NCBI GenBank assembly: GCA_951406725.2
Contig: OX597814.1
Location: forward strand, 180,730,001-180,794,000
Length of the DNA stretch: 64,000 nt
Direction: 5' to 3'
Source of the DNA: Octopus vulgaris
Taxonomy: Eukaryota
Shown here: in pieces, positions 25,109-26,870 of the stretch
Layout of the letters: each line of letters opens with the position of its first letter
Position numbering within the stretch: the stretch's first letter is position 1
The notes under the pieces: generated by a model
Seen by the model: the letters and a program-made list of their open reading frames with translations, nothing else
Told to the model about the DNA's origin: nothing
The model's database searches: none
Position numbers and translations under genes: made by a program

Positions 25109-25647
25109 TGTAGATATATATAGATATATAGATATATATACATATATATATTTATATGTTTGTATATACGTGTGTGTATGTATATGAATATGTATATTTA
25201 TACATATGTATAGAGAGAGAGAGAATGGGGAGACAAGGGAGAGACATGGAAGTATATAAATACAAATAGGCTTAATTTGTATATTTACATAGATTATAAA
25301 ATCCAGAGTTTGGAATAAAGGAAACAAAAAATATTTATATAATAGTCATATCTTGACAACTGTACATGTTTGTATACTCTTTTGTTATTTTAGCTTTCGT
25401 CACAGCATTAATGTATGCAGCATTCTCATCGATCCCGAAGTACTTTTAGCTTTCATCTTAAGAGATAAGGGCGGAATCTAAAACGCGCGTTTCTGGCTCT
25501 TTAGTCTTCCTCAGTTGGAAACGCCGAAGGGAGATAACCCAAATATGGTGTTTTACAACTTTTATCTAAAGAGAAATTTGTTTTTCTCTGCGTTAACTGC
25601 AGTGAATTTAGAAGTTGAAATATATCACAAACATATCACAAACATTT

Positions 25648-26063
25648 AGGAGCAGGAGTGGCTGTGTGGTAAGTAACTTGCTTACGAACCACATGGTTCC
25701 GGGTTCAGTCCCACTGCGTGGCACCTTGGACAAGTGTCTTCTACTATAGCCTCGGGCCGCCCAAAGCCTTGTGAGTGGATTTGGTAGACGGAGACTGAAA
25801 GAAGGCTGTCGTATATATGTGTATATATATATGTATGTGTGTGTATGTATATGTTTGTGTGTGTCTGTGTTTGTCCCCCCAACATCACTTGACAACCGAT
25901 GCTGGTGTGTTTAGGTCCCCGTAACACAGCGGTTCGGCAAAAGAAACCGATAGAATAAGTACTAGACTTACAAAGAATAAGTTCTGGGGTCGATTTGCTC
26001 GACTAAAGGCGGTGCTCCAGCATGGTCACAGTCAAATCACTGAAACAAGTAAAAGAGTAAAAG
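25648..26063 (+). mobile_element. Full-length SINE family B
   Basis: tRNA-like head, internal (TA)/(TG) tract, AGTAAAAG-type tail; near-identical to 28479-28899. Confidence 0.92.
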
Positions 26064-26269
26064 AAAAAAATAATATTTTAACTAATTCGTTTATTCCTAA
26101 TCACTGCTTGGCGCTTTTGCTACTATTTTTGTTCCGACTCAACGGTCCGCTAGCGCAACTCAGTCACTGATGTTGACCATTTTTTTTCGTTAGAGCTACA
26201 GCTTTGAATTTGTCTTAGGTTACCCTTCGTCGGTATTTACCATTGCGGTATTTACCATTGCGGTATTTA

Positions 26270-26342
26270 CCGGAATTAGCTCAGATGGTAGAGCGCTCGC
26301 TTAGCATGCGAGAGGTACCGGGATCGATGCCCGGATTCTCCA
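26270..26342 (+). tRNA. tRNA-Ala(AGC) copy lacking G1 and G2 (probable retrocopy or pseudogene)
   Basis: Cloverleaf with D arm, anticodon loop TTAGCAT (AGC at 26303-26305), T loop GATCGATG and G3:U70 alanine determinant; positions 1-2 are CC, so two acceptor pairs are lost; no encoded CCA. Confidence 0.9.
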
Positions 26343-26357
26343 CATGATAAAATTTAT

Positions 26358-26590
26358 AAGGCGGTGAGCTGGCAGAAACGTTAGCACGCCGGGCGAAATG
26401 CTTAGCGGTATTTCGTCTGTCGTTACGTTGTGAGTTCAAATTCCGCCGAGGTCGACTTTGCCTTTCATCCTTTCGGGGTCGATAAATCAAGTACCAGTTA
26501 CGCACTGGGGTCGATGTAATCGACTTAATACCTATGACTGTCCTTGTTTGTCCTCTATGTGTTTAGCCCCTTGTGGGTAATAAAGAAATA
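26358..26590 (+). mobile_element. Full-length SINE family A fused downstream of tRNA-Ala
   Basis: AAGGCGGTGAGCTGGCAGAAACG...TAAAGAAATA. Confidence 0.93.
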
Positions 26591-26821
26591 GGTATTTACC
26601 ATTGCGGAAAGCTAAAGAGTCAGAAACCCGCGTTTGGGAATCCTGTAGAAGGAAGCACTGGGCAGATATGGTGTTTTCACATCTTTCACTATAAGAGAGG
26701 GCTTTTTTTTCCCCATGGTAACAGCAGTGAGTTTGCCTTTAGAAGTTGAAATATGTCCCTAATATATTTTAACTAACCTAAACTTCGTTTATTCCTAATC
26801 ACTGCTTGACACTGATGCTGC

Positions 26822-26870
<49 letters not shown>

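What the first reader, a model, noticed from the sequence alone, without database searches (positions are those of the whole stretch)
26231..26607. tRNA-Ala(AGC)-SINE chimera retrotransposed as a single unit
Seen: an almost unmutated tRNA-Ala (26272-26342, first two G missing), a 15-nt trailer CATGATAAAATTTAT with no CCA, and a full SINE A (26358-26590) all lie between two copies of GGTATTTACC (26262-26271 and 26591-26600). The SINE alone has no TSD of its own. The target 15-mer CGGTATTTACCATTG is also tandemly repeated upstream. Inference: one integration event from either a Pol III read-through of a tRNA gene into a SINE, or an RT template jump or RNA ligation from SINE RNA onto a pre-tRNA ending in UUU, analogous to U6/L1 chimeras. 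Because it keeps intact A and B boxes, it could be a new dimeric SINE at birth.
Basis: partly seen in the sequence, partly recalled or inferred. Interest (0 to 1): 0.72.

Follow-up and report, generated by a model that had tools for sequence, protein, structure and literature searches.

The report
Precursor tRNA hitch-hiking on a SINE
A copy of an alanine tRNA with its unprocessed tail sits joined to a short jumping element (SINE) inside one insertion footprint, likely because the copying enzyme ran off the SINE RNA and jumped onto a newly made tRNA; it is a single copy and one of dozens of separate such fusions in this genome, not a spreading new element.

Summary
Observation confirmed, with one correction. 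Paralogues of the host repeat carry one copy of the 15-mer, so the target-site duplication is most likely 15 nt, with 25 nt of re-copied target at the 5' junction, not 10 nt. The tRNA equals bases 3-73 of real tRNA-Ala(AGC) genes. Read-through is unsupported: 0 of 111 cluster genes has a retroposon behind it, and a near-identical trailer is fused to other partners at three more loci. A family is unsupported: the junction is single-copy. The class is common here: 20 of 43 T-loop-plus-SINE-head hits are other tRNAs with trailers, all 11 callable duplications enclose both parts, and 21 of the top 30 U6 hits are joined to retroposons. At least 1 in about 2,200 SINE A heads carries a tRNA. Five of ten Ala captures start at bases 58-62, as a methyl-A58 block would give. 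Best reading: a reverse-transcriptase template jump onto a pre-tRNA U-tail (0.72); RNA ligation is not excluded. It is a variant of known U6/SINE chimeras; my eight literature searches found no description of sense, trailer-bearing tRNA-SINE fusions. The scan found this class before, in this genome and in others.

The parts
26066..26231 (+). Left part of the host: an old dispersed repeat
   Evidence: 39 other places at 74-86% identity among 40 scored; colinear with the right flank in paralogues
26232..26246 (+). Left copy of the likely 15-nt target-site duplication
   Evidence: Occupies the position of the single 15-mer in 13 of 14 paralogues; exact copies listed
26247..26271 (+). 25 nt of extra target sequence (one full 15-mer plus its first 10 nt), likely re-copied while the 5' junction was made
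   Evidence: Absent from 14 of 14 paralogues; a plain SINE A insertion shows re-copied target at its 5' junction too (L176). Timing is inferred
26272..26342 (+). tRNA-Ala(AGC) bases 3-73, no differences from the genes, A34 and A37 unedited, no CCA
26343..26355 (+). 3' trailer of the precursor tRNA, ending in three T
   Evidence: 1 mismatch to the trailer at L032-L034; 2 mismatches in 13 nt to the gene at L002 (= L042 minus 2256), whose trailer runs into TTTT
26356..26357 (+). Two junction bases: SINE leader or untemplated
   Evidence: The same two bases precede the SINE head in L033, L037 and L129; origin not resolved
26358..26590 (+). Full-length SINE A monomer, 233 nt, B box at 26432-26444
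   Evidence: 49,167 exact heads in the genome
26591..26605 (+). Right copy of the 15-nt duplication; its first 7 nt match the SINE tail continuation (likely priming microhomology)
26606..26820 (+). Right part of the host repeat; its first four bases equal the first four copied tRNA bases

Best explanation
This is a single-copy chimeric retro-insertion in which a trailer-bearing tRNA-Ala copy is joined head-to-tail to a full SINE, likely made when a LINE reverse transcriptase finished the SINE RNA and jumped onto the U-rich 3' end of an unprocessed pre-tRNA during one target-primed integration. Steps: (1, inferred) a LINE enzyme nicked an old repeat at the 15-mer, and the SINE RNA tail paired with GGTATTT there; (2, shown as product) the whole SINE was copied; (3, inferred) the enzyme moved end-to-end onto a pre-tRNA-Ala that still had its trailer and no CCA; (4, shown as product) it copied the tRNA to base 3; (5, inferred) it, or a repair polymerase, re-copied the single-stranded target twice before the gap closed, leaving 25 extra nt and a 15-nt duplication. 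The product lacks G1-G2 and a nearby terminator, so it is likely not a working tRNA gene, and it has not spread.
For: One trailer, several partners: the near-identical trailer is joined to SINE B (L033) and to two tail fragments (L032, L034). One tRNA-Glu trailer occurs 13 times, with SINE A 7 times, a short tail element 3, SINE B 1, LINE-like 3' pieces 2, and with variable junctions. Two chimeras match a gene trailer exactly (L037 14 of 14 nt, L009 13 of 13), and those genes continue in T-runs with no SINE. 0 of 111 Ala-type genes has a retroposon head within 77 nt. Of 43 T-loop-plus-SINE-A-head hits, 20 are tRNA by ARAGORN or BLAST; a duplication was callable in 11, and all 11 enclose tRNA and SINE, against 4 of 11 among the other 23 hits (Fisher p = 0.004). 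SINE parts of the seven same-trailer Glu chimeras are 88.4% alike, background 89.3%. Captures respect RNA ends: U6 hits that run to the U-tail are joined to the same partners in 21 of 30. Ala captures start at bases 1-4 (5) or 58-62 (5), none between. RtcB ligation fell sharply with a 3'-OH or a 5'-triphosphate end (PMC6789731, passages); these are the ends expected on a pre-tRNA and a full SINE RNA (recalled).
Against: No experiment separates a jump from ligation; the RNA end chemistry here is recalled, not measured. The exact source gene is not in the assembly: the best gene has 2 mismatches in 13 nt, and none of the 13 Glu loci is a free gene. No orthologous empty site was seen, so the 15-nt reading rests on paralogues about 80% identical; the tandem could predate the insertion. 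9 of the 20 tRNA hits gave no callable duplication, and one of the 11 is a TA microsatellite. The SINE tree has no well-supported branch, so one origin is not formally excluded by it. The gap in start positions holds for Ala only: Glu captures start at many places between about 6 and 40, and A58-T59 can be target microhomology. The LINE that moves SINE A was not found in the top 30 RT loci.
Confidence: 0.72

Rival explanations
1. The pre-tRNA and the SINE RNA were ligated as RNA (RtcB or another ligase) and then retrotransposed together, as shown for U6/L1.
For: Gives the same DNA product. U6 chimeras are common in this genome (21 of 30), and ligation is shown for U6/L1 in human cells (PMC6789731, passages).
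Against: RtcB needs a 2',3'-cyclic phosphate and a 5'-OH. Here the trailer ends in the terminator U-run and the SINE is complete to its first base. Junctions carry 0-14 extra bases, and one (L037) has no U-run. Fold-back and re-copying at 5' junctions (L124, L083, L176, this locus) point to a polymerase that changes template repeatedly.
Confidence: 0.13
2. Two sequential events: a tRNA retrocopy or gene came first and SINE A later landed in its T-rich trailer.
For: SINE A heads are abundant (49,167) and often follow T-rich sequence; 7 hits are such secondary insertions into non-tRNA sequence.
Against: Those 7 carry a duplication right at the SINE ends; this SINE has none, and none of the 11 callable tRNA cases has one. 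The host repeat is split once, with the 15-mer on both outer sides.
Confidence: 0.05
3. Pol III read-through of a tRNA-Ala gene with a SINE directly behind it, retrotransposed as one RNA.
For: The trailer in this copy ends in only three T. Read-through past a first T4 does occur in captured RNAs (L129, L039). The exact source gene was not found.
Against: 0 of 111 genes has a head within 77 nt. The same trailer has different partners at four loci. The only SINE A heads behind an Ala 3' end are this locus and L037, plus two chance hits.
Confidence: 0.04
4. DNA-templated patch: the cDNA end invaded a genomic tRNA gene and copied it as DNA.
For: A34 and A37 are unedited in 5 of 5 long Ala captures, as DNA would give; target DNA was re-copied at the same junction.
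Against: Captures begin at the terminator U-run and end at or near the RNA 5' end. In 3 of 12 copies of an unrelated tRNA-like unit, both DNA flanks are lost at the ends of the predicted transcript when it is joined to a SINE. Five Ala captures stop in the T-arm.
Confidence: 0.04
5. An active dimeric tRNA-SINE family.
For: The tRNA A and B boxes are unmutated, and the SINE tail is intact, so the copy could in principle be transcribed and re-mobilised.
Against: One copy of the junction at up to 2 mismatches; the two other hits have no tRNA upstream. Upstream A+T content at -36 to -21 is at the bottom of the range of 64 genes (0.625 against a mean of 0.82; weak).
Confidence: 0.02

Closest known systems
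U6/SINE and U6/LINE chimeric retrocopies of platypus (U6-Mon-1, U6-L2) and anole (U6-AnolisSINE2, U6-RTE); Doucet et al. 2015, PMC4476161 (passages read)
   Same: Pol III RNA in sense orientation on the 5' end of a SINE or LINE, one duplication around both, independent events, template switching proposed. The same U6 class is present in this genome.
   Different: The 5' partner here is a precursor tRNA with trailer and no CCA, from many isotypes. The passages read mention pre-tRNA retropseudogenes only as an L1 product in humans (citing Schmitz 2004), not as SINE fusions.
U6/L1 chimeras made by RtcB ligation; Moldovan et al. 2019, PMC6789731 (passages read)
   Same: Small RNA ending in a U-run fused to a retroposon.
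   Different: Needs a cyclic phosphate and a 5'-OH, and the L1 part is 5'-truncated. Here the SINE is complete and the partner is a pre-tRNA, expected to end in 3'-OH (recalled).
Human tRNA/LINE-1 chimeras; PMC13174262 (passages read)
   Same: tRNA and retroposon inside one duplication (9-19 bp).
   Different: 21 cases, mostly half-length and antisense, ascribed to twin priming; the word 'trailer' does not occur in the main text. Here sense, 3' end always present, trailer kept. Its Table S3 was not read and may hold sense cases.
Head addition in SINE evolution; Kojima 2015 PMC4494074 and Kojima 2018 PMC5786205 (passages read)
   Same: Propose that a template switch or jump adds a small-RNA head to a SINE or a bipartite LINE; 26 SINEU-2 copies carry U1-like 5' extensions.
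   Different: There the step is inferred from established families or snRNA extensions. Here single, unamplified tRNA-head additions can be counted, and none found has spread.
Tailless retropseudogenes; PMC5322556 (search listing and start of abstract only; definition from a passage in PMC4494074)
   Same: Retrocopies of tRNAs and other small RNAs with duplications.
   Different: Those are 3'-truncated and stand alone; this one has a complete 3' end plus trailer and rides on a SINE.

Membership tests
Small-RNA/retroposon chimeric retrocopies (U6/L1, U6/SINE kind) | Cellular small RNA in sense orientation at the 5' end of a retroposon | tested here: met
   tRNA-Ala 3-73 plus trailer, then full SINE A, same strand
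Small-RNA/retroposon chimeric retrocopies (U6/L1, U6/SINE kind) | One target-site duplication around both parts and none around the retroposon alone | tested here: met
   15-mer on both outer sides; single in 13 of 14 paralogues; none around the SINE
Small-RNA/retroposon chimeric retrocopies (U6/L1, U6/SINE kind) | Empty orthologous site lacking both parts | tested here: inconclusive
   Four runs laid on the right flank; no empty-site contig among the rows shown, most rows not shown
Small-RNA/retroposon chimeric retrocopies (U6/L1, U6/SINE kind) | Source gene is not linked to the retroposon | tested here: met
   0 of 111 genes; met for the gene family and for L037 and L009; the exact source of this copy is not in the assembly
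Small-RNA/retroposon chimeric retrocopies (U6/L1, U6/SINE kind) | Copies arise independently | tested here: met
   Different partners, junctions and 5' ends; SINE parts no more alike than background
RtcB-ligated U6/L1 chimeras | 5' partner ends in 2',3'-cyclic phosphate, 3' partner starts with 5'-OH, fusion RNA exists without RT | not testable with these tools
   No RNA data on the junction; expected end chemistry argues against (and recall)
Dimeric or re-headed SINE family | Many copies share one junction | tested here: not met
   One copy
Dimeric or re-headed SINE family | Transcribed by Pol III from the new head | not tested
   No RNA run was laid; predicted 405-435 nt
Functional tRNA-Ala gene | Complete acceptor stem and a terminator close behind | tested here: not met
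   G1 and G2 are missing; first T4 about 330 nt downstream, against within 36 nt in 110 of 111 genes
Human tRNA/L1 chimeras (twin-priming type) | Half tRNA, antisense to the retroposon | tested here: not met
   Near-full, sense (paper passages)

The most novel reading that the evidence does not exclude
The LINE enzyme of this genome routinely jumps from finished SINE RNAs onto nascent Pol III transcripts, so SINE 5' junctions are a fossil record of the germline Pol III transcriptome. They keep leaders, trailers, read-through ends and methyl-A58 stops of pre-tRNAs, reveal unannotated transcribed RNAs, and give a countable rate (at least 1 in 2,200 insertions) for the head-addition step by which new SINE families are thought to arise.
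Probability: 0.45. Interest if true: 0.62.

Novelty: new variant of a known kind. Interest (0 to 1): 0.43.

Why it matters
Adding a small-RNA head by template switching is the proposed route to new SINE families, but it is usually inferred from old families. Here the single events are preserved and countable, with the precursor's trailer naming the donor gene. They also offer a way to separate template jumping from RNA ligation, because pre-tRNAs and U6 should have different 3' ends yet share the same partners. Practically, such copies pass tRNA scanners (11 of the 43 hits and this locus were called as tRNA genes), so they inflate tRNA gene counts. This one locus has no sign of function.

Tried and rejected
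Read-through, sequential insertion, DNA patch and active family: see rivals.

Reads: contigs of runs X1, X2, X4 and X7 were laid on 26562-26820. One X1 contig covers 26574-26681 without differences and one X4 contig covers 26572-26681 with 1 letter and a 2-base gap. They have only 17 and 19 letters on the SINE side, below the tool's 31-letter bar for bridging, and X1 may be the source sample. No empty-site contig is among the rows shown; 605 loose ends and 71,277 pieces were not shown. No conclusion on presence in other individuals. No RNA run was laid.

Partner LINE: none of the top 30 of 150 scored RT loci shares a tail with SINE A. The window's 17 ORFs of 150 aa or more were not followed up.

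'5'-processed precursor' as a rule: rejected. Ala captures show no leader (5 of 5), but two Glu captures share a 4-nt leader-like sequence (L120, L130).

Vault RNA for the odd captured RNAs: no Rfam Vault hit at E up to 0.5 in 20 loci.

Selection on the tRNA part: 0 differences in 71 nt against a SINE end branch of 0.03 is within chance (about 0.12, my arithmetic).

Literature: searches gave 0 papers; some searches gave lists without a description of sense trailer-bearing tRNA-SINE fusions, judged from titles, abstract starts and five papers read in passages. Schmitz 2004 was not held under the id tried. No supplements were read.

Full report
The window lies on contig C1 of a 2.8-Gb animal genome. 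The SINE types look like those of octopus; that is recalled and also said in earlier scan notes, and was not tested. SINE A, B and C are working labels.

Observation. The sequence is as described. ARAGORN finds one tRNA in the window, tRNA-Ala(AGC). Bases 26272-26342 equal bases 3-73 of a cluster gene. A 13-nt trailer ending in TTT and two further bases follow, with no CCA, then a full 233-nt SINE A, 88-91% identical to six other full copies in the window. The SINE has no duplication of its own.

The footprint. The left flank matches an old dispersed repeat (39 other places among 40 scored). I aligned 14 of them. Thirteen read through the site into the right flank with one copy of the 15-mer; none has a tandem. 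The 15-mer is at 26232, 26247 and 26591. The simplest reading is a 15-nt duplication with 25 nt of re-copied target before the tRNA. It fits background SINE A insertions: of the first 30 heads on C1, 16 had a callable end, and 8 of these had duplications of 12-18 nt; one (L176) carries re-copied target at its 5' junction. A tandem that predates the insertion is not excluded. The SINE tail itself continues as GGTATTT in multimers, and most loose contig ends lie behind 26595-26597, so the target was likely chosen by pairing with the RNA tail. The first four copied tRNA bases equal the four bases after the right 15-mer, a possible microhomology that would explain the loss of G1-G2. This is inference.

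Source of the tRNA. Real tRNA-Ala genes lie in clusters on C5, C12 and C4, each with its own trailer. In 340 kb of these clusters there are 111 Ala-type genes; 110 reach a T4 within 36 nt and none has a retroposon head within 77 nt. The closest trailer is that of L002, 2 mismatches in 13 nt. A search at 1 mismatch found no closer gene but three more dispersed loci, each with a short tRNA 3' piece, a trailer one base from ours, and a different partner: SINE B, and two tail fragments. Two other chimeras match gene trailers exactly (L037, L009), and those genes run on into T-runs. L037 is a second Ala-SINE A fusion with a clean 16-nt duplication. Read-through is therefore unlikely.

How common. 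A general T-loop followed within 14-44 nt by the SINE A head gives 43 hits, control 0. By ARAGORN or BLAST to those calls, 20 are tRNAs (Glu, Asp, His, Gln, Arg, Ser, Leu); three more look tRNA-like by eye or Rfam and were left out of the count. Among the 20, a duplication was callable in 11 and all 11 enclose tRNA and SINE; 8 were weak and 1 had no called end. Among the other 23, 11 were callable and 7 flank the SINE alone (p = 0.004). With the two Ala cases that is 22 in 49,167 exact heads, about 1 in 2,200, a lower bound because captures that stop before the T-loop are missed. One Glu trailer occurs 13 times with four kinds of partner and varying junctions; none of the 13 is a free gene. 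U6 behaves alike: 21 of the top 30 of 48 scored hits have a retroposon within 60 nt by pattern (L188, a SINE A with a 14-nt duplication, was missed by the pattern).

Not a family. The junction is single-copy at up to 2 mismatches. SINE parts of the seven same-trailer Glu-SINE A chimeras average 88.4% identity, background 89.3%; the two Ala chimeras are 90.1% alike (11 loci were skipped for lack of a full copy). The tree has no well-supported branch, so it shows no clustering rather than proving separate origins.

RNA fingerprints. Ten Ala captures start at bases 1, 2, 3, 3, 4 or 58, 58, 58, 61, 62. The set comes from three searches with different bias, which would show intermediate starts, 0 of 5 were intermediate. 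A stop near A58 is what 1-methyladenosine would cause (recalled). One Glu capture (L124) also begins at base 59 and folds back on itself. Against a general rule, other Glu captures start between about 6 and 40, and A58-T59 may come from the target. All five long Ala captures keep A34 and A37, so the template was likely unedited, as in an early precursor.

Mechanism. Shown: the product's anatomy, the unlinked donors, the many independent cases. Inferred: target-primed copying of the SINE, an end-to-end jump onto the pre-tRNA U-tail, then re-copying of target. Ligation gives the same product. RtcB works poorly with 3'-OH or 5'-triphosphate ends (PMC6789731, passages), which are the ends expected here, and re-copying and fold-backs suggest a polymerase that changes template often. 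I put the jump at 0.72 and ligation at 0.13. End-to-end jumping by R2 RT was seen only as a citation. The partner LINE was not found. Reads gave no answer on an empty site, and the 5' junction was not examined in reads.

Known kinds. It works like the U6/SINE chimeras of platypus and anole (PMC4476161, passages) and meets the tested features of that broad class. It differs from human tRNA/L1 chimeras, which are mostly antisense halves (PMC13174262, passages). It is the step proposed for SINE head addition (PMC4494074, PMC5786205, passages). Eight searches did not turn up a description of sense, trailer-bearing tRNA-SINE fusions; subscription papers and supplements were not seen. Earlier scan notes report the same class in this genome and in others. 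I saw them after my own tests; they are not independent support.

Verdict. Real, single-event, single-copy, probably inert. A new variant of a known kind; interest 0.43, carried by the genome-wide class rather than by this locus.

Noticed in passing
L241-L252 (first seen in L085): A tRNA-like unit of about 90 nt with A and B boxes, a long terminal stem and a T-run sits in a dispersed repeat with conserved flanks (584 first-look candidates). In 3 of 12 loci it has lost both flanks and is joined to SINE A or B, which suggests it is transcribed by Pol III.
   Followed up: partly
L095, L103 (also L075, L086, L091, L094): Unidentified B-box-containing sequences ending in T-runs in front of SINE A; L095 and L103 have 12- and 13-nt duplications around both parts. 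No Rfam family at the junction.
   Followed up: partly
L124: tRNA-Glu bases 59-73 plus trailer plus a tail element, preceded by their own inverted copy: a fold-back at the likely stop site.
   Followed up: no
L120, L130, L074, L083, L099: 4-7 extra bases before tRNA base 1; L120 and L130 share the same four, so they may be pre-tRNA 5' leaders.
   Followed up: partly
L129, L039: Captured trailers run past a first T4 to a later T-run, a record of leaky Pol III termination.
   Followed up: no
L181-L210: U6 chimeras with SINE A, B, C, tail elements and LINE-like ends: 21 of 30 by pattern; five tandem U6 genes at C1 139.42 Mb.
   Followed up: partly
G000:C5 51.55-52.13 Mb, C12 72.98-73.09 Mb: Very large tRNA-Ala clusters: 119 ARAGORN Ala calls (73 TGC, 43 AGC, 3 CGC) among 128 tRNA calls in 340 kb fetched.
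   Followed up: no
window 25473-25636, 26066-26231, 26606-26831: The host is an old dispersed repeat with internal direct and inverted units, also interrupted by a SINE B at 25650-26062; class unknown.
   Followed up: partly
window 54942-54591 and 42163-41746 (minus strand): SINE A forms head-to-tail multimers that restart at about base 50 of the element, where the internal sequence matches the tail continuation.
   Followed up: no
L211-L240: A young LINE family with many near-identical open frames up to about 950 aa dominates the RT hits; its tail does not match SINE A. Clade not determined.
   Followed up: no
L084:2872-3055: Start of a eukaryotic SSU rRNA sequence at the end of the locus, outside an rDNA context as far as seen.
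   Followed up: no
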